This document shows, piece by piece, positions 1 through 12,326 of a stretch of 64,000 bases of DNA (position 1 is its first letter; each line of letters begins with the position of its first letter). Both the position numbers and the translations under genes were made by a program. The notes beneath the pieces are model-generated. The model was not told where the DNA came from. It saw only the letters and a program-made list of their open reading frames with translations, and ran no database searches. This stretch comes from Candidatus Latescibacterota bacterium (GTDB lineage: Bacteria > Latescibacterota > UBA2968 > UBA8231): contig CBDCXV010000010.1 of NCBI GenBank assembly GCA_965223905.1, positions 1,088,001 through 1,152,000 of the forward strand. Reading direction: 5' to 3'.

Positions 1-344
1 TCCATAGCGCCCAGTGCACGAGAAATGGTGGCCACATCGGGTAGACGACGTAACCCCAGCAGCCGCTGCACCAAGGGGTCGTCGCGGTAGTAGTCCACGT
101 CCCGCAAGCGCCGGAAGCCCAGCAGCAGATGGACGATGACTACCAAGACGATGCGATGCGGCCCAAAGATGGGGAAGCCCTTCAGGTGCTGGAAGCACTG
201 CTTCAGTCGGGCCTTCAGATCCAGACGCTGGAATAGCGCCACAAAGACAATCACGCCAGCAAACGATGTGAGCTGCTGATCTTCGAATCGGATAACCGGC
301 ATCTTGTGAAAACGGGCCAGAATTGCTTGTTTGCTGAACTTCAC
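1..344 (-). CDS. IS1380-family transposase, N-terminal part (not in ORF track)
   Basis: Hand translation from GTG 344 (AGGAGG SD upstream): VKFSKQAILARFHKMPVIRFEDQQLTSFAGVIVFVALFQRLDLKARLKQCF...HLLLGFRRLRDVDYYRDDPLVQRLLGLRRLPDVATISR. It is collinear with ORF 19102..20142. Confidence 0.9.
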   Translation of the reverse strand, partial: MKFSKQAILARFHKMPVIRFEDQQLTSFAGVIVFVALFQRLDLKARLKQCFQHLKGFPIFGPHRIVLVVIVHLLLGFRRLRDVDYYRDDPLVQRLLGLRRLPDVATISRALGAM

Positions 345-474
345 TTTTGGTGCCCTCCTGGATTGAGGGGGTTGGTGTCTTCGCTAACACCATAGATCCC
401 CATTCTTCAGAGGCACCGCAAGTGACAATGCGGCAGTTCATTCCCTCACATCCGCAATTCTTATGCAACTATGG
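1..474 (-). mobile_element. IS1380-family element, transposase-5' end only (runs off window start)
   Basis: The transposase N-terminus aligns with the IS at 18641-20197. The terminal motif TTATGCAAC-TATGG (461-474) resembles TTATGCAAC-CAGAGGG at the end of the second copy. The exact end is uncertain by a few bp. Confidence 0.85.
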
Positions 475-585
475 AGTGAAATCAGCAAGAACGGCCCCGT
501 CAAGGTAGGTTCGTCAGAATCAAGCGCTGTTGCCTCGTCTGCTGCTGTGCAGGCTGCTACAGGAACTCCCCAGACCTATGGCTGA
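475..585 (+). pseudogene. 3' remnant of an IS-interrupted gene ending in a C-terminal Gly (probable metallo-beta-lactamase partner of the E2-E1-JAB)
   Basis: Open frame directly after the IS end: EISKNGPVKVGSSESSAVASSAAVQAATGTPQTYG*. Its TAT GGC TGA overlaps the ATG (578) of the next gene. The identity of the full protein is inferred from context only. Confidence 0.6.
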
Positions 586-2923
586 TGATCTCCATACGTC
601 AAATCAAAAAATAGAGGAGCCCGCCAATCTCAGCCCTGCGATAAATGAAGCAATTCTTGATCTGAAGAAAGCATTTTCAGATCAAACCATTGATGCACTT
701 TCTTGGAATAAGCACTACATAGCCATACCGCTTGATGTAGCGGTTGATTTGCCCGCCCGTGGCCCGGTTGGCTCCTTAGATATTCAAAAGCGAGAGCCGA
801 TCTACTTACTCCTCCATCGCCAACACTATCCTCATAAGGCACCCTCAGCCTGGTCCAACCGCAAGAATTTTCCTGCATCCATGTTGCCCCACCTGAACCC
901 AACATCACCGGGAATGGCAGCCAACTTCTGCCTTCACCGGGGCAATTTTGATAACTGGTTCGCAGAACACACCATCGTTGATGTCGTCCAACGGATTCGT
1001 AGTTGGCTACGTGACGCAGCCCGTGACCGGCTGATTCGCAAAGAAGGTGGATTTGAGTTTACCCGCATTTCAGATACGCTTGGCTATACCATCTATGAAC
1101 CATCCGCCTTAACCGAGGTGGTCTATAAAACATGGCGCCAAAACAAGGGAACAGCAGGCTTTTGTTTCTTGTGGTACGACCTGCTGAAAAATCCGAGCAA
1201 AGACCCCCTCATCGCCAAGGATACCTACGCCATACGCCTGGCGTGCTCACTCCTTAGCGAAGACACTGCAAAGCCACGTGAAGTCAGCTTGAAACTCAAT
1301 GGCTTTCACTCAGAGGACAACAAACTGGAACGCATGCTCTTTGGAGTGTTGGCATGGCCTAGCAAGAGGCAGGTCTGCGGGAGATACTTCACAGAACTGC
1401 CTGATACGCTCCGTGCCTTCGTGGAGTGGGGTAAAAGCTTCGGCATTCCAACAAGAACCGCCTTGCAGACCTATCTGTCCAAAGACCTCCAGCTATTGGG
1501 CGGCGTCCCGGTCACAGTCGTCATCCCCAGACCTCAACGAGTTATTGGGTCCAGCTCTCGGCTTGAACTTTTGAATTTCACAGTCAACGCAGCTGGTGAC
1601 CACTGGCCCGAGGATGGAGAATGGAATCTTGATGCAAAGGTCACAAGTATAGGGCACCGAGTCCCTCTCACAGTCCGAAGGGCACGCGATATCTCCTCTC
1701 AACCAGAGGATGTGGACTTCGGTCGCCTACTGTTTCTTGGGTGTGGTGCTGTCGGCTCAAAGCTGGCCCTTCACTTGGCCAAGAGCGGACAGCCGAACAT
1801 GACCTTAGCTGATTACGATGAGCTGTCGCCACATAACCTGGTCAGGCACGGTCTGCTGCACGAAAGCACCGGGAGGAACAAAGCTGAAGCCGTCAAAGAA
1901 GCTATACAAGGGATATTTTACGCGGACAAATCAGTAAAGGTTGACACATACAAATCTTCTGCTTTAGACCTATTTCTCGGCCAGAATCAGAGCATCCTAA
2001 AAGCTCACAAATGGATTATTGATGCCACTGCTTCTTCAATGATGCTGAATGCGTTGAGCCAGGCTAAGATTCCCGATACTCTCGCCTGCTGTCGCTGCGA
2101 AATAGCAGACCATGGCCAACTCGGTTTCTTGAGCGTAGAGGGTGCCAACCGGAACCCGCGACTTGATGACCTTCAGATAATCCTCTTTGATATGGCGCTC
2201 AAGCATCCTCTGCTGTCACAATGGCTCCAAGAAAACAAAGAACAGCGTGAACAGCAAATTGGTTCCGCGCTTGAGGAAATTAACATTGGCATTAGCTGTA
2301 GTTCCGAAACTATGCGCCTTTCAGATGAACTTGTATCACTGCACGCTGCTTCGTTTGCCACTGGTTTCCGTAGTTGTGCGAAGAAAGGAATACCGAACAG
2401 CGCAGGCAGAATACAAGTTAGTGAGTATTGCGAAAAAGGACAATTGACCAGTATTGTCCAGCACTACGATGTTGGGGCAATGACGGTCGTCTCCGCCCGT
2501 AATGATCCATCGTGGCAAGTGCGCCTCAAACATGGTCTTGTAGCAAAAATGCAAATTCTACTCCGCCATGCTAAGCCAAACGAGACAGGCGGCCTTTTAA
2601 TCGGCATGGTCCATTTCAAACGCAAGACTGTTTATATCACCCGTGTTTTGCCTGCACCTGCAGACAGTGTATCCAGCCCTTACGCATTTGTGCGTGGCAT
2701 TCAAGATCTCCCGGAAACCGTATACAAGATTCAAAACCTCACTGGTGGAATGCTCGGTTATGTAGGAGAATGGCACACACATCCAGACGGAGGACCAAAC
2801 TTGAGCTTGACAGACAGAGAAGCAGTTGAGAAAGTTAAATCAAACTTGGATAGCATTCCTCTGCCCACGCACGTAATGATTGTTACAGCCCGTGGCATTT
2901 ATCCCCATATTTTCACTCCCTGA
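578..2923 (+). CDS. Prokaryotic E2 - ThiF/E1 - JAB peptidase fusion (Cap2+Cap3-like; 6A-MBL/Pycsar/CBASS-type ubiquitin-like machinery)
   Basis: E2-like YPxxAP...FP...PHLN...FCL with Cys; E1 GCGAVGS, DYDELSPHNLVRH and a distal GISCSS Cys; JAB ETGGLLIG...YVGEWHTHP...S..D. ATG 578 is preferred over TTG 530. Confidence 0.9.
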   Translation: MADDLHTSNQKIEEPANLSPAINEAILDLKKAFSDQTIDALSWNKHYIAIPLDVAVDLPARGPVGSLDIQKREPIYLLLHRQHYPHKAPSAWSNRKNFPASMLPHLNPTSPGMAANFCLHRGNFDNWFAEHTIVDVVQRIRSWLRDAARDRLIRKEGGFEFTRISDTLGYTIYEPSALTEVVYKTWRQNKGTAGFCFLWYDLLKNPSKDPLIAKDTYAIRLACSLLSEDTAKPREVSLKLNGFHSEDNKLERMLFGVLAWPSKRQVCGRYFTELPDTLRAFVEWGKSFGIPTRTALQTYLSKDLQLLGGVPVTVVIPRPQRVIGSSSRLELLNFTVNAAGDHWPEDGEWNLDAKVTSIGHRVPLTVRRARDISSQPEDVDFGRLLFLGCGAVGSKLALHLAKSGQPNMTLADYDELSPHNLVRHGLLHESTGRNKAEAVKEAIQGIFYADKSVKVDTYKSSALDLFLGQNQSILKAHKWIIDATASSMMLNALSQAKIPDTLACCRCEIADHGQLGFLSVEGANRNPRLDDLQIILFDMALKHPLLSQWLQENKEQREQQIGSALEEINIGISCSSETMRLSDELVSLHAASFATGFRSCAKKGIPNSAGRIQVSEYCEKGQLTSIVQHYDVGAMTVVSARNDPSWQVRLKHGLVAKMQILLRHAKPNETGGLLIGMVHFKRKTVYITRVLPAPADSVSSPYAFVRGIQDLPETVYKIQNLTGGMLGYVGEWHTHPDGGPNLSLTDREAVEKVKSNLDSIPLPTHVMIVTARGIYPHIFTP

Positions 2924-2945: not shown

Positions 2946-3599
2946 ATGAAAAAACTTGATATCTACCAAACGCTCGCTGTCTTCATGCCGGGCTACTTTT
3001 TTGCTTTTGGCTCCTACATACTTCTGCACAGGCTTGGTGTTGCCATGCCATTTGAGATTTCGTCTATCGGCGGCAGCATTGCCTTGATTGTTATGGCCTA
3101 CGTCATCGGGCAACTGGTCCAAGTAGTTGGTAATGCTTTTGAGTGGCTATGGCGCAAAGTGCGCCCTGTACCTTCGGTGAGAATTCAAAAAGGAGATGAA
3201 AAGATTCTGACCTCACATCAACGTCAGCAACTCATTGACGCTATGAAGCAAAAGGTTGGCTTGCCCGACGGTGATGTCTCCAAACTACCCCGAAGCGAAT
3301 GGTTTTCATACGTAGGTTCAGTGGCCTCAGCAGTCCGTCAAGCAAAGCAAATGGAACAGGTGGATATCTTCAGTGCGCACTGTGGAATGTTTAGAGGACT
3401 CGTGGCCGCAAGTTTTCTCCTCGCTCTCGGCTCGTGGCTCCTTTTGGGAGAACAATGGCACCTGCCTGTTGCTACACTTATTGTGCTTGGTCTTCTTGCG
3501 CTCTACCGAATGGACCGCTTTGATAAGAATTACGCCAGAGAGTTGGTCCGACAGTTTCTGCAAATTGCAAGACAGGAAAACACAGACCAGAAGGACTAG
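2946..3599 (+). CDS. Four-transmembrane protein, putative defence effector
   Basis: Two N-terminal and two C-terminal hydrophobic helices around a soluble loop. It starts 22 nt after the JAB gene on the same strand. Confidence 0.75.
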   Translation: MKKLDIYQTLAVFMPGYFFAFGSYILLHRLGVAMPFEISSIGGSIALIVMAYVIGQLVQVVGNAFEWLWRKVRPVPSVRIQKGDEKILTSHQRQQLIDAMKQKVGLPDGDVSKLPRSEWFSYVGSVASAVRQAKQMEQVDIFSAHCGMFRGLVAASFLLALGSWLLLGEQWHLPVATLIVLGLLALYRMDRFDKNYARELVRQFLQIARQENTDQKD

Positions 3600-3629: not shown

Positions 3630-3902
3630 CTATAACTCAATCCGCACGATCAGCTTGCCATCCAAACTCTCGTCCCGCAAATATCCTTCTTCCTCTAATT
3701 GCTCCAGCCAGCGTTTTAGTTCCACTACAGACACGCTGATTTCTTCGGCTATACGCTGAAAAGATGCCCGGTAATAGCCGGTTTTGGGGTTCATCCGGGT
3801 GAGAATGTAAAGGTAAAACCACAAGGCCTGTCCTTGCTGTTCAAAGTCCTGCAGGAACTTCCTTGGCCAGGTCCTGGAGTAAATTGTCAGTTGCTCTGCC
3901 AT
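3630..3902 (-). CDS. Small winged-HTH DNA-binding protein
   Basis: SFQRIAEEISVSVVELKRWLEQLEEEGYL is an HTH/wing pattern; 90 aa. Confidence 0.65.
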   Translation of the reverse strand: MAEQLTIYSRTWPRKFLQDFEQQGQALWFYLYILTRMNPKTGYYRASFQRIAEEISVSVVELKRWLEQLEEEGYLRDESLDGKLIVRIEL

Positions 3903-4012
3903 CTATCTCTACCATAGCAGATAGACGACGCAAGGGAACTGGGGCAGAGTTGCTCGGGCAGACGCGATGGGTCAGTCGCTTTATGCACCTATATTTGTGC
4001 TCCGACGCCGTT

Positions 4013-4041
4013 TTGAATACAGTCTGCGACTTCGGTATGAT
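4013..4041 (+). promoter_or_regulatory. Sigma70-type promoter
   Basis: TTGAAT-N17-TATGAT upstream of the AAGGAG RBS and ATG 4105. Confidence 0.55.
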
Positions 4042-4104
4042 ACTTCAGAGCCACCGACAGTGCGGTACGTCCATAGTCGCCAATTCCAAGGAGCTTCTAT
4101 CAAG

Positions 4105-4527
4105 ATGCCAGATATCTCAACCGTCCTAAAACAAGAAATCACTCGCCTCGCAAAAAAAGAGCTCAAACCAATTGCTGGAAGCCAGTCAAAACAAATTCAA
4201 GCTTTGAAAGCCACGGTTAGAGATTTGAAAGGCCAAATCGCTGCCATACAGAAATCTCTCACTAATGCTGCTACTCCTCAACCGTCACCGCCAGAGCAAG
4301 AAGATGAACAAGGAGCAATCCGCATCAGTCCAACGTCAATCAAGAAACACAGAAAACGCCTCCGACTTTCCCAGGCTCAATTGGGAAAGTTACTCGGAGT
4401 CAGCACTACTACCATCGTCTTCTGGGAAACTGGGAGGTCCTCTCCAAGTGGGACGAACAGGGAGCATATCGCCGAGTTGAGAGAAATGGGATTGCGGGAA
4501 GCAAAATCACTTTTAGAAACCATTTGA
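4105..4527 (+). CDS. XRE-family HTH regulator with N-terminal coiled coil
   Basis: N-terminus MPDISTVLKQEITRLAKKE; Cro/C1 HTH RKRLRLSQAQLGKLLGVSTTTIVFWETGRSSP; RBS supports a start at 4105. Confidence 0.85.
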   Translation: MPDISTVLKQEITRLAKKELKPIAGSQSKQIQALKATVRDLKGQIAAIQKSLTNAATPQPSPPEQEDEQGAIRISPTSIKKHRKRLRLSQAQLGKLLGVSTTTIVFWETGRSSPSGTNREHIAELREMGLREAKSLLETI

Positions 4528-4774: not shown

Positions 4775-5461
4775 TCACACCTTGCTCGTCTTTGCCGATT
4801 GAGCCTTCGCATTTTGAACTCTTCTCTCGTTCCGCTTTTCGTACTCCAGACGCAACTGTTCATCCCGAGAAGGAAGATCATGATATATCTGCTGCGTAGC
4901 ATCACATATTTCTAATAATCCATGAACACGATCAAATCTCTTGGATGGACCATTTTCCCTCCAACAGCTTGGAGGGCCAAAATCACTCAAAAGCTCATTG
5001 CCCGTTAGAATCAAAACAGGATTAAGAGGGCGCTCACTCTTCCAGCGTTTCCTTCCAGCTTTGGCAATCCGAGTGATCTCCCGTAATTCCCGCTTATTTA
5101 ACTCTTTCCGCAGCGTGCAGAACGCAAGCACGGCTCCAGGAAACCTCTTCCCAATAGTTCGCATCCGCACAAAGTCCTTTTGCTCAAATGTGTCAAAGGT
5201 TTTGCACTCCCCAAAAATCACGCCTTCAGCAACACTTCCGAACAAAGATTCCTGCCACAAAATCCCGAAGTCTGCTTCCAATTTCTTGCCTTGCTCACCG
5301 TTGGCAATAAAACAATACGATGGCGTTACCTGTAGGCTATGCAATCGGCAAAGGAACTCCACGGCTAGCAGTACACAATATCCGCCATCAGCATGTCCGG
5401 GAATACTGAACGGTCCAGCTGTCTTGTAGTACCACACATTGCTTGAGCTAGTCCGAGACCC
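4775..5461 (-). pseudogene. C-terminal fragment of a protein with a PD-(D/E)xK-like nuclease motif
   Basis: EADF...IFGECKTF motif. There is no convincing start or RBS, and the frame closes at about 5462, next to the integrase fragment. Confidence 0.5.
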
Positions 5462-5477
5462 TCAAGCTCAACATTGA

Positions 5478-5936
5478 GTGATGGATTCAGTGGATCATTT
5501 GTTTCCCAGCCGCATGCGCATCGTCCGCAACCTCTGCCTGTATCGACAGAGGACGGAGCCACACTGCTTCATCCCAGACCTAGAGTTGTTCCCGCGCCCC
5601 CGTGCTCCGCGCCGTCCCTACGTCTTCAGCGAGCAGGATATGGTGCGGCTCCTGCATCACGCCGAGGACCTTGGTTCAAGCTCAAACTCACCGCTACGGG
5701 CCGAGGTTTATCGTCTCGCACTCGTCCTACTCTACACGGCCGGTCTGCGACGAGGCGAGCTCGTGCGCCTGACACTCTCCGACTACGATGCCGCGCAGCA
5801 AACCCTTCACATTCGGACCACCAAGTTCCACAAATCTCGGCTCGTGCCCCTGTCTCGCGACGCCGACCACGAGATGGACGCCTACCTCGAAGCACGTCGA
5901 CGGTTGCCGCACGGTCCGGATGCCCCTCTGCTGTAG
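5478..5936 (+). pseudogene. Internal fragment of a RIT-type tyrosine recombinase (RitB-like)
   Basis: PYVFSEQD...LLYTAGLRRGEL...IRTTKFHKSRLVPL. It lacks the HxxR and catalytic Tyr region and ends at a junction. Confidence 0.85.
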
Positions 5937-6031
5937 GAACTGATGGTGTGGCGGCTTGTCTGACGCTGCTGCATCAGGCGCTGTGTAAAGAAACGCTCCA
6001 CTACCGCAGCGAAGTTGGAGGGAGTGGTCAT
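5934..6031 (-). pseudogene. N-terminal fragment of a RitC-like tyrosine recombinase
   Basis: Hand translation MTTPSNFAAVVERFFTQRLMQQRQTSRHTISSY. Its start overlaps the preceding stop (ATGA). Confidence 0.7.
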
Positions 6032-6202
6032 GACCGAGCCTCCAAGCAGTGCTCAAGCCGTCGCATCGCCTCGCGCATGAGCTCGGGCGAGCCGCTCAAA
6101 TACCACTGCGTATCGGCAACATGCACGTGGCCGAGGTAGGCGGACAAGAGAGGCACACGCCGCTCGGGATCTTGACCGGCTCGATACCACCCAACGAGCG
6201 TC
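6028..6202 (-). pseudogene. C-terminal fragment of a RitB-like tyrosine recombinase
   Basis: WYRAGQDPERRVPLLSAYLGHVHVADTQWYL carries LGH and the catalytic Tyr. The upstream part of ORF 6028..6555 is not recombinase-like. Confidence 0.8.
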
Positions 6203-6866
6203 TTGGGTGTAGCATCGCTTTTACGCAGCGATTCTGTCGGGCATGTGTAAATGTGGTCTGCTGCAAGTACCAGTTCCAGAAGCCCTCCCATCGTTTCGAA
6301 TGCACCTGGACTCGTAGGTGGAAGTCCGCTGCACCTACCTGAGGGCTCACCGCGAGGAGGATGAACGGCAGCAGGCCTTTGAGAAGAGTATATCTGTTGT
6401 CGGTGACCCTCTTCGCCAATGGCGGTGCAGAATGTAACCTTAAAGAAGATCGAAGAAGAACCTGAACACCTGCAAGAGAGAATCGGATTTCTGTCTCCGT
6501 CGGTCGTACGGCTCGAGACTTGAGGCAGGAATCCAAATGCCCCGAGCTTCTTCACAGCATTCTCGCGAGCAGTCGATATGGGAAATTCAGGAGGGGACTG
6601 CGGTCACGCTATTTGTTGACGACATTACAGAGATTGAGAAAACGTACCCAGGCCAGCGCTGAACGCACATCAGCACATTTGAGGACCCCAAAGCCCATGA
6701 TGTGGGCCCGTCATACGATTTGGGCTGAACGGACGAATCTGGCACAATCGCAGGTGGAACATGATGCGACCTGCGAATCATCACAGCTATTCGTCGTGTC
6801 ACAGAGGGAGGCCCTTGAGACTCCAACGATGGCACCAAACAGCATTCGTGGCGAGTTTGGTTCAGT

Positions 6867-8165
6867 CTATCGTGAGTCGCTTGGAGCGTCGGTGAGGGGC
6901 GTCGGCGGCGTCTGCACTCGCGTGTAGAGGATCGCGTCGAGCACTTGCGGCCAAACGGCCTCCATGCTTCTGCCGTAGCCTATCAGCGAACAGAAGCACG
7001 GCTTCGCGAAAGGGCCCGGCCGCCGCAGGTCGACGAAGAGCGGCGTCTTGCCGTATCGGGCGCAGATGTCTTCGAAACTGCCCGGTGCTGGCTCGTCGAG
7101 CACGAAGCCGCGCCCGAAGCGTCCCGCCTGGCCCTCAGATGCAGCAAAGCCGATGGTGTAAACCCGCTCCCCGTACCACCCGTGCAGGTACTCCCCCATT
7201 GCCTTGCAGCCTCGGCAGAAGTCATCGTTGCCCTCTACGGAGACTTTGGTCAGGTTGTGCGCCTGATGGAATGTCGCTGCCCAGCAGATGATCTTCTTGT
7301 CGGGATAGCGCTCTTCGGCGAGCCAACGGAAGTTCTCGGCCATCCGGCCGTCGCGCATGTTCGTCGTGCCGTACCGACCGTGCTTTTGGGCGGAGTCGGG
7401 CGCGCCTTGCGCGTACTCGAACCTCTCGCGGGCGACGTAGTTGTCGAGGCAGTGCGACCAAAACGCGGTCTCCCTCTCCCCGTGCTTTGCCACCAGCGTG
7501 GGGCGGCTGTCGTCGAAGAGTTCACGCACGCGGCCGAGGGCGGCGACAGCCGCATCGTGCTCCCCCAGAGACGGCTTGTAGGGCCCGGCATTGAGCCGGG
7601 CGTCGGCGCGGAAGAGGGTGATTCTGTCGTCGGTGGAGATCTCCCCGACCGGCCTGAGCATATCATAGAGACGGATCAGAAATTCGCCCGCCAGCCGGCC
7701 CGAGCCGCGTGTGTCGAAGCCGGTGAGGCGAAGGGGCCGCCTCCCCCGGGTGCTTACGAGGTGCTCGAAGACCGGCAGCGCTTCCTTCACATTCCAGATC
7801 CCGAAGATCGAGGCGCGAATCGCGTCAAGCGCCAGCCCATTCTCGATTAGCGCATTCGCCATCTCGCACTCGTAGAGCCCCGACTCGAAGGCGAGCACCT
7901 CGAATCCCATCTCCTCGTGGAGGAAGCGGACGAGCCGCGCCTTGGCGCGGAAGGACTGACCGTCCCCGTGGCTCTGCTCTCCGAGCTGGACGATTCTCAC
8001 ATCCTTGAGGATCCGTTTGAGGGGGGCGAGGTCTCTTGTTCCGGCATTGAAGTCCAGGGTATGGAGACGCAGGGCGTGGCGGTCGAACCAACCCTTCAGC
8101 TCGTGGCCGAGCGGCTGCGAACCCTCTTCCAGGTGCAGTGGCGTAGCGGGGGCAGCCATACTCAC
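6867..8165 (-). CDS. Erythromycin esterase family protein
   Basis: VQLGEQSHG, GFEVLAFESG, GFD, RDGRMAEN, WAATFH and YTIGF motifs. The start is uncertain. Confidence 0.85.
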   Translation of the reverse strand: MSMAAPATPLHLEEGSQPLGHELKGWFDRHALRLHTLDFNAGTRDLAPLKRILKDVRIVQLGEQSHGDGQSFRAKARLVRFLHEEMGFEVLAFESGLYECEMANALIENGLALDAIRASIFGIWNVKEALPVFEHLVSTRGRRPLRLTGFDTRGSGRLAGEFLIRLYDMLRPVGEISTDDRITLFRADARLNAGPYKPSLGEHDAAVAALGRVRELFDDSRPTLVAKHGERETAFWSHCLDNYVARERFEYAQGAPDSAQKHGRYGTTNMRDGRMAENFRWLAEERYPDKKIICWAATFHQAHNLTKVSVEGNDDFCRGCKAMGEYLHGWYGERVYTIGFAASEGQAGRFGRGFVLDEPAPGSFEDICARYGKTPLFVDLRRPGPFAKPCFCSLIGYGRSMEAVWPQVLDAILYTRVQTPPTPLTDAPSDSR

Positions 8166-8418
8166 GCGCGAACCGGCTCTTGGGATGGTCCGTTCTTCTG
8201 AGGTTCGACTGGCAGGACGCCGTGGATTTGGCTTCTTCGTCTACTCATCGACACAGCAAGCGTCCTACCACAGATCCTCGATTCCATGTCGTCGTCAATG
8301 GCACTCGCTTGAATCACAAGGACAATCAGCAGGGCATCCATGGCCACCAGCCCTCCTTTTGCGCCGGCAGGTTGGTCTTCAACGTGGTGATGTCGGTATC
8401 GGGATCGTGGGAGCGCTC

Positions 8419-10257
8419 TCAGTCGTTTTGGAGCGACCGACCCCTCACCCAGTCCCGACTGTACCAATTTGCCTGCTCCCTCCACATACGTGCATACATG
8501 CCGTCGAGTGCCAGCAACTCTGCGTGGGTGCCTTGCTCGACAAGACGCCCTTCGTCGAGTACTACGATGCGGTCGGCCAAACGGGCTGAACCGAGGCGGT
8601 GCGAAACGAGCAGGGCTACAGAACCTACTGCCAGCCGGGCAAACCGCTTAAAGACGTCTGCTTCTGCCAGAGGGTCGAGGGAAGCGGTGGGTTCGTCGAG
8701 CACCACAACGGAAGCCTCCCTCATGTATGACCGAGCGATCGCGACCCGTTGCCACTCTCCGCCGGATAAGTCCGTGCCCTCGGCGAACTCTCTACCCAGC
8801 ATTGCGTCAAAGTCTCCGAGCCGCGTCAACAACTCACCTGCCCCACCCCTGCGAGCTGCCTCCTTCAGCGATTGATCTTCATCCAGTAGCTTCAGATTAC
8901 CAAAACCGATGTTGTGTCGCACCGAGAGGTGATATCTCATGAAATCCTGAAAAACTGACGATGTGTCCGCTCGCATGGACCTAGGATCCATCAAGTTGAG
9001 GGGCACACCGTCAATCTTAATTTCGCCCCCTGTCGGTTGGTACAACCCAAGCATCAGACGGACCATCGTACTCTTGCCCGCTCCGTTCGGGCCAACCAAC
9101 GCGATGGTTTCACCAGGCCCAATGCAGAAAGACACACCATCGAGGGCTGGATTGCTTTGACCGGGATAGGTGAAGCCGACGTCTTTCACCACGATTCCTC
9201 GAGTTCGACCGGCCGTTTTGGCGATTCCTCCCTTCTCTTCTTCATACGGTAGATCCAAAAACTGCAACAAATCCGCAAACCGGAGCACGCGTTCGTACTG
9301 CTGGCCAGACTGCGTCAACAACTCGGTCAGCGCGGTTTGGAAGCGACGTAACGTCTCGAACAACGCAACAAAAGCCGACACCTCCAACGCGCCGTTGACC
9401 GTTAACCAGATTCCAAAGGAAAGCGCCCCCACAAAACCAACATGCGATCCGCTATCAATGACTGCGCGACTCCTGCCCTGGCGATCGGCCAGCGCGACGC
9501 GGCAGTTCGCCAAAGGGCGAGCAAGCTGATACCACCTCTCCCGGAGATATTCACCTATCTGGAACAGTCGTATCTCCTTGGCGGCAGCGCGATCGGTCTG
9601 CAGTCGACTGAGATACTCGGACAGACGCGTGTTTTGGATCTGTTCCTTGTACAGCGAATATCGGCGCCGGCCATGCCGTAATCGGTTGAACATGATCGGC
9701 AGTCCGGCGACGACGACAGCGAGCAGTAAACGAATATCGTAGGAAATTAGGATACCAGCCAGAGACATCAGAATCAAAACGCCTTTCCAACTCTCGGCCA
9801 GTCGGATCATCATCATGATGAAGTCGCCGCTGTTTATGGAACGGCGCGCACTCACCAACAGATCAAAAAACTGAGGATCCTCGAAACGCTCCAACCTCAG
9901 TGCTTGGCTCTTCTCCATGAGCCGCTTTTGCAGCTGCCGCCGGAACTCCTCCTGCGAAAACGAATTGATCCAGATGTGCAACTGAAGCAAAAGCGACTCA
10001 AGCCCCTGGACTGCTGCTAGTAAGACGATCCAAGCCACAAGAGCCTTTAGCGGAGACGCGCCGAGGACGACGTTCTCAGCCACTCCGGTTGTCCGCTCTA
10101 GCACCCAAACGCCAGCGGATGGCAAGATCCCCAGCAATACCATATTCAACACGGTTACACTGCCGATAACGGGCACTGACCGTACGAGCATGACAAGCAG
10201 GGTCAGGCTCAAACGAAACATCGACAGCCATTTGCCTCCCCGCGTCTGCCCGTTCAC
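8419..10257 (-). CDS. ABC exporter, fused permease/ATPase (half 2)
   Basis: TM domain with AAKEIRLF; Walker A GPNGAGKS; signature LSGGEWQ; Walker B VVVLDE. A GTG start overlaps the upstream stop. Confidence 0.92.
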   Translation of the reverse strand: MNGQTRGGKWLSMFRLSLTLLVMLVRSVPVIGSVTVLNMVLLGILPSAGVWVLERTTGVAENVVLGASPLKALVAWIVLLAAVQGLESLLLQLHIWINSFSQEEFRRQLQKRLMEKSQALRLERFEDPQFFDLLVSARRSINSGDFIMMMIRLAESWKGVLILMSLAGILISYDIRLLLAVVVAGLPIMFNRLRHGRRRYSLYKEQIQNTRLSEYLSRLQTDRAAAKEIRLFQIGEYLRERWYQLARPLANCRVALADRQGRSRAVIDSGSHVGFVGALSFGIWLTVNGALEVSAFVALFETLRRFQTALTELLTQSGQQYERVLRFADLLQFLDLPYEEEKGGIAKTAGRTRGIVVKDVGFTYPGQSNPALDGVSFCIGPGETIALVGPNGAGKSTMVRLMLGLYQPTGGEIKIDGVPLNLMDPRSMRADTSSVFQDFMRYHLSVRHNIGFGNLKLLDEDQSLKEAARRGGAGELLTRLGDFDAMLGREFAEGTDLSGGEWQRVAIARSYMREASVVVLDEPTASLDPLAEADVFKRFARLAVGSVALLVSHRLGSARLADRIVVLDEGRLVEQGTHAELLALDGMYARMWREQANWYSRDWVRGRSLQND

Positions 10258-12326
10258 CGGTACCACTCCGCCTGAGTGTTGTACATCTCCCAGTACCTTC
10301 CTCTATCCACCATGAGCTCATCGTGGGTGCCCTGTTCAATTACTCGACCGCCCTCCATGAGGAATATCTGGTCAACAAACCTCGCAGATCCGAGACGGTG
10401 TGAGATGAGGAGTGTCGTCCTCCCTCTCGCGGCCGATTCGAACTGTCTGTACACATTCGCTTCTGCCATCGGATCAAGGGCAGAGGTTGGTTCGTCCAAT
10501 ATCATCACTTGTGGATCCCGCATGAAAGCACGGGCAATGGCGGTTCGCTGCCATTCTCCGCTCGACAGTTCGATCCCCCCATCGAAGGTCCTCCCAAGTG
10601 GAGTCTCGTATTTCTCTGCAAACCTCTCAACGACGCCGGCTATGCCGGCACGGACCGCGGACTGACGGACGCGCTCCACATTCTGAATGTCATCGACCAT
10701 TCCAAGGCCGATCACTTCCCTGACGGGGAGTTCGTACTTCACAAAATCCTGAAAAACGGCTCCAATGATTTTGCGAAGGCTGTGCCGGTCGATCTCGTGG
10801 ATTGGCGTCCCGTCAAACAGAATTTCGCCCGTTCCCAACGGATACAGACCGCATATCAACTTCGCCAACGTGGTCTTCCCGCAGCCGTTCTTGCCGACGA
10901 GAGCAGCAGACGTCCCGGCAGGGATTTCCATATCCAGGCCCTTTATTATCGGTTCCGCTGTTCCCGGATAGGAGAAGTGTAGGTTATTCACGCATATCCC
11001 TTGCTTCAGTGGGCCCGCGACACTTGTCAAGCCGATGCCCTTCGTAGGACTGCCCGGTAGCCAGTCATCGCCGACCGCCTCGCTCTTTCGGGCATCGGGG
11101 ATTGCGCTTTTGCCGCCAATTGGGATCTCACCCCTGTTCGCCTCTGCAAGGTCGTCATTGCGCAGAAAGTCCAGAACATATTGCACCTGCTCTCCGTTTT
11201 CCAAGCCCCAATAAAGGGCGTCTGCAGCTGCGCGCTGGGAATCAAAGTAATGATTTAGAGCCATGATCAGCGCTACGAACACCCCCAAAGTCACCTCGCC
11301 GTCGCCAAGAGACTGGGCGATGAACACGACCGCGCCAAAAACGAAAAGACGCTGAAAGATCGTCACCATCATGCCGAGCTTGAGATGATAGCCCTGCAGT
11401 GCCAAACGTTCTCGCGCCAATTCGCCGAAGAGCCTATCCCACCATCCAACTATGTAGGCTCCCAGCCCAAAGAGGCGGATCTCCTTGGCGGCCTCCCTCC
11501 CGAATAGCAACCCGCCGAGATAGTCGAGCCGACGGGTCGTCTCAGTCCGCTGAAAGAAAAGTGTGTTGACAGACGTCACTTCGGAAATTCTCAACAAAAA
11601 TGAGGGCACAAGCCAGGCGCAAGCGACGAGTCCCAGCACGGGCACATAAGCCCAAATCATCACGATCATGGTGAAGAGCGTTACGAGTTGGGTGCCCGAG
11701 CGCGTGAGATTCGACCAAAACCCAGTCACTGTGCTGACCGCGTTCCGAGCCCGCGTTATGGCGTCATGCACCGCCGCCTGCTCAAGGCTGATCAGATCTA
11801 CCTGCTCTGAACGTTCCAAAACCAGCCGCAAGACTTCGACGCGACCCCGTTCAAAGAGCCGCGCGAACGCGACCTCATGCAATACTCCCACAAGATGTCC
11901 AAGAAGCAGCCCGACCCCAAGGGCGCTCACCCACGGCAAGGCCCTCATGAAGCCATCCTCGACACCCGTGGCAAGCACATCGATCAGCTGCCTGCTCAGC
12001 CATATGGTGACCGCTGGCACTAGCCCACTCACCACCGTTGTACCGATGTAACACACGACAACAAAGGGATGAAGCGACCAGTGGAGGCCAACCGTAAATC
12101 GAAGCCACATGCCTAGATCGCTAGCGCTCTCTTGTGCGATCTTGATGCCGCCAAACAGGTAGCGCCACAGCGCAAGGAATATCCCGATGTCTTCTTGGCG
12201 GAAGGCTATATTGTGTCTCTCCGTCCGGGTCACTCCAACACTCCACAATCGGTTGGTGAAATCCTTACGCAAGGCGGGTTTCTTGCGCTCAACGCCAGGA
12301 TCACCCGCCAATAGGCACACAACCAA
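10254..12326 (-). CDS. ABC exporter, fused permease/ATPase (half 1)
   Basis: AAKEIRLF; Walker A GKNGCGKT; signature LSSGEWQ; MILDEPT. The true start probably lies downstream of 12326 (about 12233 or 12108). Confidence 0.9.
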   Translation of the reverse strand: MVVCLLAGDPGVERKKPALRKDFTNRLWSVGVTRTERHNIAFRQEDIGIFLALWRYLFGGIKIAQESASDLGMWLRFTVGLHWSLHPFVVVCYIGTTVVSGLVPAVTIWLSRQLIDVLATGVEDGFMRALPWVSALGVGLLLGHLVGVLHEVAFARLFERGRVEVLRLVLERSEQVDLISLEQAAVHDAITRARNAVSTVTGFWSNLTRSGTQLVTLFTMIVMIWAYVPVLGLVACAWLVPSFLLRISEVTSVNTLFFQRTETTRRLDYLGGLLFGREAAKEIRLFGLGAYIVGWWDRLFGELARERLALQGYHLKLGMMVTIFQRLFVFGAVVFIAQSLGDGEVTLGVFVALIMALNHYFDSQRAAADALYWGLENGEQVQYVLDFLRNDDLAEANRGEIPIGGKSAIPDARKSEAVGDDWLPGSPTKGIGLTSVAGPLKQGICVNNLHFSYPGTAEPIIKGLDMEIPAGTSAALVGKNGCGKTTLAKLICGLYPLGTGEILFDGTPIHEIDRHSLRKIIGAVFQDFVKYELPVREVIGLGMVDDIQNVERVRQSAVRAGIAGVVERFAEKYETPLGRTFDGGIELSSGEWQRTAIARAFMRDPQVMILDEPTSALDPMAEANVYRQFESAARGRTTLLISHRLGSARFVDQIFLMEGGRVIEQGTHDELMVDRGRYWEMYNTQAEWYR

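What the first reader, a model, noticed from the sequence alone, without database searches (positions are those of the whole stretch)
475..585. Hidden remnant of the conjugated partner: a flexible tail ending in ...PQTYG* coupled to the E2-E1-JAB start
Seen: the 111 nt between the IS end and the fusion gene are an open frame (EISKNGPVKVGSSESSAVASSAAVQAATGTPQTYG*) overlapping ATG 578, and the ORF track misses it. Established: in type II CBASS, Cap2 (E2-E1) activates the exposed C-terminal Gly/Ala of the upstream CD-NTase and Cap3 (JAB) cleaves it. E2-E1-JAB fusions also pair with a metallo-beta-lactamase-fold protein in the 6A-MBL system. Inference: this Ser/Ala-rich tail with a terminal Gly is the conjugation handle of a non-ubiquitin enzyme, most likely an MBL, and IS1380 inserted so as to sever it.
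Basis: partly seen in the sequence, partly recalled or inferred. Interest (0 to 1): 0.8.

Follow-up and report, generated by a model that had tools for sequence, protein, structure and literature searches.

The report
IS-severed tail of a 6A-MBL defence enzyme

Summary
Window 482-585 is the 3' end (residues 351-384 and the stop) of a 384-aa MBL-fold gene. Its first 350 codons lie 1.55 kb to the left, outside the window. A 1551-bp IS1380-family element with a 5-bp target duplication (TGAAA) splits the gene; removing it in silico joins the halves in frame. Both genes score above NCBIfam's curated cut-offs for the anti-phage 6A-MBL system (MBL enzyme; cap2_3 E2-E1-JAB fusion). Of 119 homologues, 117 carry ...YG within the last 30 residues, 114 of them 0-3 residues from the end. 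In 35 of 67 related loci the fusion gene's start codon sits inside the Tyr/Phe-Gly codons. A complex model places the tail's C-terminus in the JAB active site (0.61 against 0.01 for the best control). Conjugation through the Gly is inferred by analogy with type II CBASS and was not shown here. The system is already catalogued, so novelty is low: this is a naturally tail-less, probably inactivated copy. A side lead: a Csx27-like membrane protein or a patatin gene often follows the fusion, giving a CBASS-like three-gene layout.

The parts
1..476 (-). Right-hand 476 bp of a 1551-bp IS1380-family element. The whole element is window -1074..476, which equals G000:C10:1086926-1088476 and L001:10926-12476. 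The transposase gene is on the - strand with its start codon at window 344; the terminal inverted repeat is at 461-476.
   Evidence: The 458-aa transposase scores 231 bits against a cut-off of 180 on NCBIfam NF033539 IS1380 and Pfam DDE_Tnp_1_4 gives 1.4e-39. The ends are imperfect inverted repeats, 12 of the first 16 bases matching. A 1552-nt contig of another organism's run (X23) covers exactly L001:10926-12477 with 2 differences. There is one copy in this genome and a 74% relative on C9.
477..481 (.). Right copy of the 5-bp target-site duplication TGAAA. The left copy is at window -1079..-1075 (C10:1086921-1086925).
   Evidence: One search prints both copies directly flanking the inverted repeats.
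482..585 (+). Severed 3' end of the 6A-MBL system's MBL-fold enzyme gene: residues 351-384 (ISKNGPVKV...TPQTYG) and the stop at 583-585. The 5' part, codons 1-350, lies outside the window at -2125..-1076 (L001:9875-10924).
   Evidence: In-silico excision gives a 384-aa ORF with the junction ...LLPIEFE|ISKNGPVKV. Homologue P0002 reads PLPIEFEISKNGPVKV there. Tail identity to P0002 is 83%. The 5' part scores 388 bits on NF058524 6A-MBL_enzyme, and its model has an MBL fold.
577..582 (+). Tyr-Gly codons TAT GGC. The fusion gene's ATG (578-580) is made of the last two bases of Tyr and the first base of Gly.
   Evidence: One search shows the sequence. The same arrangement occurs in 35 of 67 related loci that have a fusion gene: 32 with ATG and 3 with TTG.
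578..2923 (+). E2-E1-JAB triple-module gene (6A-MBL cap2_3), 781 aa, apparently intact.
   Evidence: NF058523 scores 541 bits against a cut-off of 320. Pfam finds Prok-E2_A, ThiF and Prok-JAB. A profile search hits PDB Cap2 chains at about 2e-18. The columns invariant across 26 homologues are all present: C118, G388/G390/G393, D482, C574, E669, H733, S743 and D746 (plus nearly invariant H735).
2946..3599 (+). 217-aa membrane protein gene 22 nt after the fusion gene's stop; a possible third component (Csx27-like / PDC-M48A family).
   Evidence: Homologues lie directly after the fusion gene in L027 and L030, and remote relatives are aligned in A4. Eight of 9 members hit PADLOC Csx27 and others hit PDC-M48A. 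This link was only partly followed up.

Best explanation
Window 482-585 is the last 34 codons of the MBL-fold enzyme gene of a 6A-MBL anti-phage operon (MBL enzyme, then the E2-E1-JAB 'cap2_3' fusion, then probably a membrane protein). The operon sits on a low-GC island next to a serine recombinase. A 1551-bp IS1380-family element inserted between codons 350 and 351 and duplicated TGAAA. The left fragment now encodes the complete catalytic domain followed by 23 IS-derived residues that end in Arg. The native Ser/Ala-rich tail ending in ...TPQTYG is left without a start codon, directly in front of the fusion gene. In the intact system the tail is most likely the handle by which the fusion protein acts on the enzyme. 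By analogy with type II CBASS, the E1 module would adenylate the terminal Gly, pass it as a thioester to the E1 and E2 cysteines, and conjugate the enzyme to a target. The JAB module would trim any residues after the Gly and reverse the conjugates. Shown here: the gene anatomy, the family membership, the conservation of the Gly, and a model that docks the tail in the JAB site. Inferred: adenylation and conjugation, that conjugation primes the enzyme, and that this copy is inactive because the handle is lost and the fusion gene is cut off from the operon promoter.
For: Anatomy. The left half is an ORF running into the IS. Excision of the IS with one copy of the TGAAA duplication gives a stop-free 384-aa protein. 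Its junction matches homologue P0002 and alignment A1. The IS boundaries are confirmed by an independent 1552-nt contig.

Family. NF058524 (388 bits against 220), NF058523 (541 against 320) and IS1380 NF033539 (231 against 180) all pass their cut-offs. The model has mean pLDDT 87 and an MBL fold, with the ComEC MBL domain 9ic4 as best match at E 2.7e-12.

Handle. Of 119 non-self homologues among the best 120 of 1366 hits, 117 have YG within the last 30 residues: 58 end in G, 30 have 1 more residue, 19 have 2, 7 have 3, 2 have 8 and 1 has 22. Sixty-eight of 80 genome loci have a fusion homologue downstream. In the stricter count of 77 judgeable loci (fusion required within 2.5 kb), 54 of 67 with a fusion have aromatic-Gly within the last 4 residues, against 2 of 10 without a fusion. 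Thirty of the 32 loci whose start codon is not embedded in these codons still keep [YF]G 0-4 residues from the end.

Complex model. Score 0.61, best of 3 controls 0.01. That mark was reached by 58 of 80 solved complexes and 2 of 110 mismatched pairs. The runs agree in at least 82% of contacts and the partner's pLDDT is at least 55. Tail residues 19-35 contact residues 669-766 of the fusion, including E669, H733, H735, S743 and D746.

Literature. Iyer 2006 describes the operon in table row 6a (passages). Ye 2024 states that 'Type II CBASS... [quoted passage not shown] Jenson 2023 shows that Cap2 forms a thioester with the C-terminal Gly of cGAS and that Cap3 cleaves at the C-terminus (passages).
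Against: No biochemistry was done: adenylation, thioester and isopeptide formation are untested for any 6A-MBL protein in the papers I could read. The one experimental paper cited for the system (van den Berg 2024) is not held. The complex model put the tail in the JAB site, not in the E1 adenylation site, so it supports recognition by the peptidase and not activation by E1. The pass may also reflect likeness to solved JAB-tail complexes. It used my own alignments, so the calibration counts hold only roughly. Thirteen of 67 fusion-linked loci do not have aromatic-Gly within the last 4 residues: 11 have it with 4-5 trailing residues, and L029 and L044 end in Gly without an aromatic residue before it. 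Loss of function in this copy is inferred only. The promoter scan is a consensus match and no RNA data were examined. The only run whose contigs cross both junctions (X19, 0 differences) may be the sample the genome was assembled from.
Confidence: 0.85

Rival explanations
1. The tail is only a JAB-recognised pro-peptide or autoinhibitory C-terminus. On this reading the peptidase trims or releases it to switch the enzyme on, and no E1/E2 conjugation of the enzyme takes place.
For: The complex model docks the tail's last 17 residues in the JAB active site and not in E1. Fifty-nine of the 117 homologues with the YG motif carry 1-22 residues after the Gly that would need trimming.
Against: Fifty-eight of the 117, and this window's copy, end exactly at Gly, so there is nothing to trim. 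The E2 Cys118, the E1 glycine-rich loop and Cys574 are invariant in 26 fusion proteins. That conservation is hard to explain if only the peptidase acts. The precedent in CBASS is conjugation.
Confidence: 0.08
2. The Tyr-Gly end is conserved at the DNA level because it holds the start codon of the downstream gene (translational coupling), not because the protein needs it.
For: In 35 of 67 loci the ATG or TTG of the fusion gene lies inside the aromatic-Gly codons. In the window this is TATGG at 577-581.
Against: Thirty of the 32 loci without an embedded start still have [YF]G 0-4 residues from the end, mostly GFG encoded as TTC GGN. Eight of 10 judgeable loci without a fusion gene lack the motif, so the motif tracks the partner protein and not a start codon alone.
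Confidence: 0.03
3. The insertion is an assembly artefact (a chimeric join at a repeat) and the gene is intact in the organism.
For: The genome is a draft of 11 contigs with 5% contamination. The only run whose contigs cross the junctions may be the source sample.
Against: A perfect 5-bp duplication flanks inverted repeats exactly at the break, which is the signature of real transposition. Two contigs of 5.7 and 6.2 kb in X19 cross the left and right junctions with 0 differences, and no IS-skipping joint was reported. Contigs can hide rare alleles, however.
Confidence: 0.03
4. The frame is a chance ORF, or an independent leader peptide of the fusion gene.
For: It has its own ATG at 463.
Against: That ATG lies inside the IS end. 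The peptide is 83% identical to a homologue's C-terminus and joins in frame to the left half.
Confidence: 0.01

Closest known systems
6A-MBL anti-phage system (Iyer, Burroughs and Aravind 2006, operon type 6a; NCBIfam NF058524 and NF058523; named as a defence system in papers that cite van den Berg 2024)
   Same: Both proteins pass the curated equivalog cut-offs. The gene order is MBL then E2-E1-JAB, with overlapping stop and start.
   Different: This copy is split by an IS 34 codons before the stop. The NCBIfam MBL model (346 positions, matched at residues 10-350) does not cover the tail at all. A third, membrane-protein gene follows; I could not check whether that is part of the published definition.
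Type II CBASS (CD-NTase with Cap2 E2-E1 and Cap3 JAB)
   Same: The E2-E1 part is related to Cap2 (PDB 7tsx, 7tsq and 7to3, about 2e-18). The JAB part is related to Cap3 (NF050170 at 6e-7, below its cut-off). The substrate enzyme ends in a conserved Gly only when the conjugation genes are present (compare Jenson 2023). Patatin or membrane-protein genes often follow.
   Different: There is no CD-NTase. The enzyme is MBL-fold with an HxDxDH motif. Cap2 and Cap3 are fused into one polypeptide. No cyclic-nucleotide sensor domain was found.
PADLOC candidate system PDC-M48 (A is a membrane protein, B is an MBL protein)
   Same: Relatives of the downstream membrane protein hit the PDC-M48A models (best 1.9e-64). 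The MBL part hits PDC-M48B weakly (2.7e-7, residues 9-83).
   Different: The window's own membrane protein hit only Csx27 (1.9e-4), not M48A. As its A/B naming suggests (not checked), PDC-M48 has no E2-E1-JAB gene.
IS1380 family insertion sequences
   Same: The transposase scores above the cut-off. The element is 1551 bp with imperfect terminal inverted repeats and a 5-bp duplication. That these sizes are typical of the family is recalled, not checked.
   Different: It is a single copy in this genome. Near-identical or related copies occur in other organisms' runs and in marine metagenomes.
ComEC beta-lactamase-like (nuclease) domain, PDB 9ic4
   Same: It is the best structural match (E 2.7e-12, TM 0.71 by target length) and the only PDB sequence-profile hit (E 0.0027).
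   Different: Identity is 17%. The 6A-MBL enzyme has extra inserts and the C-terminal tail. Nuclease activity is only suggested.

Membership tests
6A-MBL anti-phage system | MBL-fold enzyme of the 6A-MBL family | tested here: met
   NF058524 scores 388.4 bits against a cut-off of 220 on residues 10-350 of the 5' fragment. The fold search confirms an MBL fold.
6A-MBL anti-phage system | Triple-module E2-E1-JAB protein (cap2_3) | tested here: met
   NF058523 scores 541.1 bits against a cut-off of 320. Pfam finds Prok-E2_A, ThiF and Prok-JAB in that order.
6A-MBL anti-phage system | The two genes adjacent in one operon | tested here: met
   The remnant's stop overlaps the fusion gene's ATG. After in-silico excision the genes are contiguous. 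Sixty-eight of 80 related loci show the same pairing. In the genome as it stands, the IS separates the catalytic part from the fusion gene.
6A-MBL anti-phage system | Intact, expressible genes | tested here: not met
   The MBL gene is interrupted after codon 350; the fusion gene is intact. It is therefore filed as a disrupted member.
6A-MBL anti-phage system | Protection against phage | not testable with these tools
   Known only from citations of van den Berg 2024. That paper is not held.
Type II CBASS | CD-NTase (cGAS/DncV-like) signalling enzyme | tested here: not met
   The upstream enzyme is MBL-fold. It gave no CD-NTase hit in Pfam, PADLOC or NCBIfam.
Type II CBASS | Cap2-like E2-E1 and Cap3-like JAB | tested here: met
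   PDB Cap2 chains match at about 2e-18. PADLOC E1-E2 and JAB models match at 1e-27 and 1e-25. Here the two are fused.
Type II CBASS | Substrate enzyme with a conserved C-terminal Gly or Ala | tested here: met
IS1380 family | IS1380-type DDE transposase | tested here: met
   NF033539 scores 231.4 bits against a cut-off of 180.
IS1380 family | Terminal inverted repeats and a short target duplication | tested here: met
   Twelve of the first 16 bases pair and the duplication is the 5-bp TGAAA. The ends are confirmed by the X23 contig.
Ubiquitin-like modifiers (beta-grasp) | Beta-grasp fold of the conjugated protein | tested here: not met
   The conjugated partner is a 350-residue MBL-fold domain with a tail. 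It may work like a Ubl at its C-terminus but is not one.
Beta-lactam-hydrolysing metallo-beta-lactamases (resistance enzymes) | HxHxDH zinc motif and similarity to class B beta-lactamases | tested here: not met
   The motif is H74-x-D76-x-D78-H79. Pfam Lactamase_B gives only E 0.13, below its cut-off. The best structural match is a competence-protein (ComEC) MBL domain. There is no sign of a resistance gene.

The most novel reading that the evidence does not exclude
6A-MBL may really be a three-gene, CBASS-like pathway. The MBL enzyme occupies the place of the cyclase and is primed by conjugation through its terminal Gly. A Csx27-like membrane protein, or in some loci a patatin phospholipase, would be the killing effector. 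On this reading 'MBL plus membrane protein' units without the fusion (PDC-M48, L033) are the type I form, in which the enzyme lacks the terminal Gly. The enzyme would then make or release a signal rather than acting as the terminal nuclease. This window's IS allele would be a natural mutant with the handle removed.
Probability: 0.3. Interest if true: 0.6.

Novelty: new member of a known kind. Interest (0 to 1): 0.3.

Why it matters
The system is already catalogued, so the finding itself adds one disrupted member. Its value is as clean comparative support for a mechanism that, in the papers I could read, is stated but not demonstrated for MBL pathways. The enzyme's tail ends in a Gly that tracks the presence of the E2-E1-JAB partner. 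The Gly is followed by 0-3 removable residues in 114 of 119 homologues. It is modelled into the JAB active site. The curated family model does not cover the tail, so annotation pipelines will not notice when it is missing, as it is here. The frequent membrane-protein or patatin gene after the fusion suggests that the two-gene definition may be incomplete.

Tried and rejected
I expected the marine metagenome runs with a word share of about 0.31 to hold the uninterrupted locus, that is, the empty site. Laying X1 and X2 showed that they hold only IS-related sequence, within L001:10924-12477, and nothing from the flanks. That idea is rejected.

No IS-skipping joint was seen in X19. Contigs hide rare alleles, so this says nothing about an empty-site allele.

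A DNA search of 40 relatives found no copy of the MBL gene apart from one 33-base chance match. No empty site is therefore available from kin.

A blastn search of plasmids with window 1-480 found no match.

Pfam alone barely sees the MBL fold (Lactamase_B at E 0.13). NCBIfam, PADLOC and the fold search were needed.

The other family of 4-TM proteins found downstream (L002, L004, L009, L032) and the patatin proteins (L012, L015) gave no PADLOC hit.

A second structure prediction, of intact homologue P0014 with alignment A5, was meant to see how the tail is modelled. 'Flexible tail' therefore rests only on composition, on the variable middle columns, and on a partner pLDDT of 56-58 in the complex.

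Searches for a mechanistic paper on 6A-MBL found only citations. Van den Berg 2024 and Ledvina 2023 are not held. The terminal Gly or the third gene may already be described there or in supplements, which are closed.

Full report
**Observation.** The window is G000:C10:1088001-1152000. Window 463-585 is open and reads MQLWSEISKNGPVKVGSSESSAVASSAAVQAATGTPQTYG*. The stop TGA at 583-585 overlaps ATG 578-580 of a 781-aa gene (578-2923) that carries Prok-E2_A, ThiF and Prok-JAB domains in that order. To the left, the window begins inside a transposase gene on the minus strand.

**What lies across the IS.** I read the contig to the left of the window (L001 = C10:1076001-1092000).
- An ORF on the + strand starts at L001:9875. 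It contains a THPDQDH motif and runs into the transposon.
- The element's ends are imperfect inverted repeats (12 of the first 16 bases match), flanked by a perfect 5-bp direct repeat, TGAAA. The copies lie at C10:1086921-1086925 and window 477-481.
- The element is C10:1086926-1088476, 1551 bp.
- Its 458-aa transposase passes the NCBIfam IS1380 cut-off (231 bits against 180).
- The boundaries have independent support. A 1552-nt contig in another organism's run (X23) covers exactly L001:10926-12477 with 2 differences, and a marine-metagenome contig (X2) diverges from the stretch at 10924.
- Contigs of run X19 cross both junctions with 0 differences, but that run may be the source sample.

Removing the element and one repeat copy inside a script gives a stop-free 384-aa protein with the junction ...LLPIEFE|ISKNGPVKV.... 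The closest intact homologue, P0002 (77% identical), reads PLPIEFEISKNGPVKV at that place. The homologues listed are mostly 380-387 aa long. The 35-residue tail is 83% identical to P0002's, no more diverged than the rest of the protein. The fusion gene keeps every column that is invariant in 26 homologues. The insertion therefore looks recent.

**What the genes are.**
- The 350-residue 5' part scores 388 bits on NF058524, 'anti-phage 6A-MBL system MBL-fold protein' (cut-off 220).
- The fusion scores 541 bits on NF058523, '6A-MBL system cap2_3 protein' (cut-off 320).
- Pfam alone barely detects the MBL fold (E 0.13).
- An AlphaFold model built on a 27-sequence alignment (mean pLDDT 87, pTM 0.90) matches MBL-fold structures. 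The best match is the ComEC beta-lactamase-like domain 9ic4 (E 2.7e-12).
- Invariant residues form an HxDxDH variant of the metal motif (H74, D76, D78, H79), together with H197, D238 and H265/H266.
- In the fusion, C118 (E2 region), G388/G390/G393 and D482 (E1 nucleotide site), C574, and the JAMM residues E669, H733, S743 and D746 are invariant, and H735 is nearly so. Assigning C118 and C574 as the catalytic cysteines is my inference from their position.
- PDB Cap2 chains are the closest solved relatives (about 2e-18).

**The tail in homologues.** There were 1366 database hits at E <= 1e-5, and I examined the best 120. Of the 119 non-self proteins, 117 have YG within the last 30 residues: 58 end at the Gly, 30 have one further residue, 19 have two, 7 have three, 2 have eight and 1 has 22. 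The two exceptions are P0040 (...PWGT) and the truncated P0101.

In 80 genome loci from many phyla, archaea included, 68 have a fusion homologue downstream on the same strand. For the motif count I dropped three loci: L028 and L069 have too little downstream DNA, and L065 is a fragment. One more locus, L051, counts as lacking a fusion in this stricter tally, because its fusion lies 4 kb away. Among the 77 loci left, 54 of 67 with a fusion have an aromatic residue followed by Gly within the last 4 residues. Of the other 13, 11 have that motif with 4-5 trailing residues, and L029 and L044 end in Gly without a preceding aromatic residue. Of 10 loci without a fusion, 8 lack the motif. The terminal Gly therefore tracks the conjugation partner, as Jenson et al. 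reported for cGAS in CBASS (passages read).

**A possible confound, tested.** In the window and in 35 of 67 loci, the fusion gene's start codon is built from the last two bases of the Tyr/Phe codon and the first base of the Gly codon (TATGG). DNA-level constraint could therefore mimic protein conservation. However, 30 of the 32 loci without an embedded start still keep [YF]G 0-4 residues from the end.

**Docking.** A complex model paired the whole fusion (alignment A2) with the 35-residue tail (alignment A3). It scored 0.61, and the best of 3 controls scored 0.01. That mark was reached by 58 of 80 solved complexes and 2 of 110 mismatched pairs. The runs agree in at least 82% of contacts and the partner's pLDDT is at least 55. 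My own alignments were used, so these counts hold only roughly. Tail residues 19-35 contact fusion residues 669-766, including the JAMM residues, and the terminal Thr-Tyr-Gly lies next to F704 and H733. This supports recognition of the tail by the peptidase module. It does not show adenylation by E1, and it may owe something to solved JAB-tail complexes.

**Mechanism.**
- Shown: the anatomy, the family membership, the conservation of the Gly, and the modelled JAB contact.
- Inferred by analogy with type II CBASS: E1 adenylates the Gly, thioesters form on the E1 and E2 cysteines, the enzyme is conjugated to a target and thereby primed, and JAB trims the post-Gly residues and reverses the conjugates. 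The analogy rests on Jenson 2023 (passages) and on the statement by Ye et al. 2024 that MBL pathways conjugate their enzymes (passages; the reference list points to van den Berg 2024, which is not held).
- In this genome, the left fragment encodes the catalytic domain plus 23 IS-derived residues ending in Arg. The handle has no start codon of its own, because the ATG at 463 lies inside the IS.
- The only + strand promoter-like site upstream of the operon (L001:9803-9831) is now 2.7 kb from the fusion gene. A transposase gene in the opposite orientation lies between them, together with one further consensus match inside the MBL gene (L001:10617-10646) (consensus scan only).
- I therefore read this copy as inactivated. 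That is an inference.

**Context.** The operon lies in a stretch of about 47-54% GC between flanks of 65-68% GC. The IS interior is 61% GC. Upstream there is a large serine recombinase gene. The MBL gene was not found in the 40 relatives searched. The system thus sits on an acquired island.

**Side lead.** A 217-aa membrane-protein gene (2946-3599) follows the fusion gene's stop after 22 nt.
- Of the 30 closest loci with a fusion, 15 have a gene for a protein with at least two predicted membrane spans directly after it. Three have a patatin-like phospholipase (Pfam). Four have another ORF. Eight have none on that strand within 200 nt (the membrane-span count is a crude hydropathy rule).
- Eight of 9 aligned members hit PADLOC Csx27 (best 9.6e-12), and several hit PDC-M48A (best 1.9e-64). 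The MBL part hits PDC-M48B weakly.
- One locus, L033, has the MBL and the membrane protein without a fusion, and its MBL lacks the terminal motif.
- This layout recalls CBASS type I against type II, but it rests on few loci.

**Known or new.** Iyer et al. 2006 described the operon type as row 6a (passages). Later papers name 6A-MBL as a defence system and cite van den Berg 2024 (passages). NCBIfam has equivalog models for both proteins. This is a disrupted new member of a known kind. My searches found no held paper that demonstrates conjugation of the MBL enzyme or describes its tail.

Noticed in passing
window 2946-3599 (+); L027:9477-10076, L030:9477-10076, L012:9457-10587: A Csx27-like / PDC-M48A-like membrane-protein gene follows the E2-E1-JAB gene here and in 15 of the 30 closest loci; in 3 of the 30 a patatin-like phospholipase gene takes its place. 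This suggests a third, effector-like component.
   Followed up: partly
L033:5986-7161 and 7837-8430: An MBL homologue is followed by the same membrane-protein family with no E2-E1-JAB gene, and this MBL lacks the terminal aromatic-Gly. It may be a 'type I' form. It is a single example.
   Followed up: no
L051:7101-8504 (Acidobacteriota MAG): A second, unrelated mobile element sits directly after the MBL stop and pushes the fusion gene 4 kb away. It has two ORFs of 104 and 268 aa, and another copy lies 3.5 kb upstream. This is a second case of an IS hitting the same operon.
   Followed up: no
L001 about 5500 to window about 5400: A low-GC island (47-54% against 65-68% in the flank) carries a large serine recombinase (L001:7859-9568), an AbiGi-like gene (L001:7143-7463, - strand), several HTH genes (window 3630-3902 on the - strand, 3967-4527 on the + strand) and an unassigned 220-aa ORF (window 4775-5437, - strand).
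   Followed up: partly
L001:4134-5438 (-): A 434-aa ORF at the island's left edge looks like another transposase. I judged this by eye from the translation (zinc-ribbon-like CxxC pairs); it was not searched against any library.
   Followed up: no
window 5478-6555, both strands: Overlapping ORFs on opposite strands include a stretch that reads like a tyrosine-recombinase fragment (by eye). This may be a broken integrase at the island's right edge.
   Followed up: no
L001:10926-12476 (the IS): Related copies of this IS1380-family element appear in many marine and seawater metagenome runs from 13 studies (word share about 0.3), and near-identical copies appear in two other organisms' runs (share 0.65). 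Only X1, X2, X19 and X23 were laid.
   Followed up: partly
L071, L073-L076, L079 (Nitrotoga / Nitrosomonadales): More distant MBL homologues of about 416 aa stand alone beside sugar-nucleotide genes. They have no fusion gene and no terminal Gly, so they are probably a different, non-defence branch.
   Followed up: no
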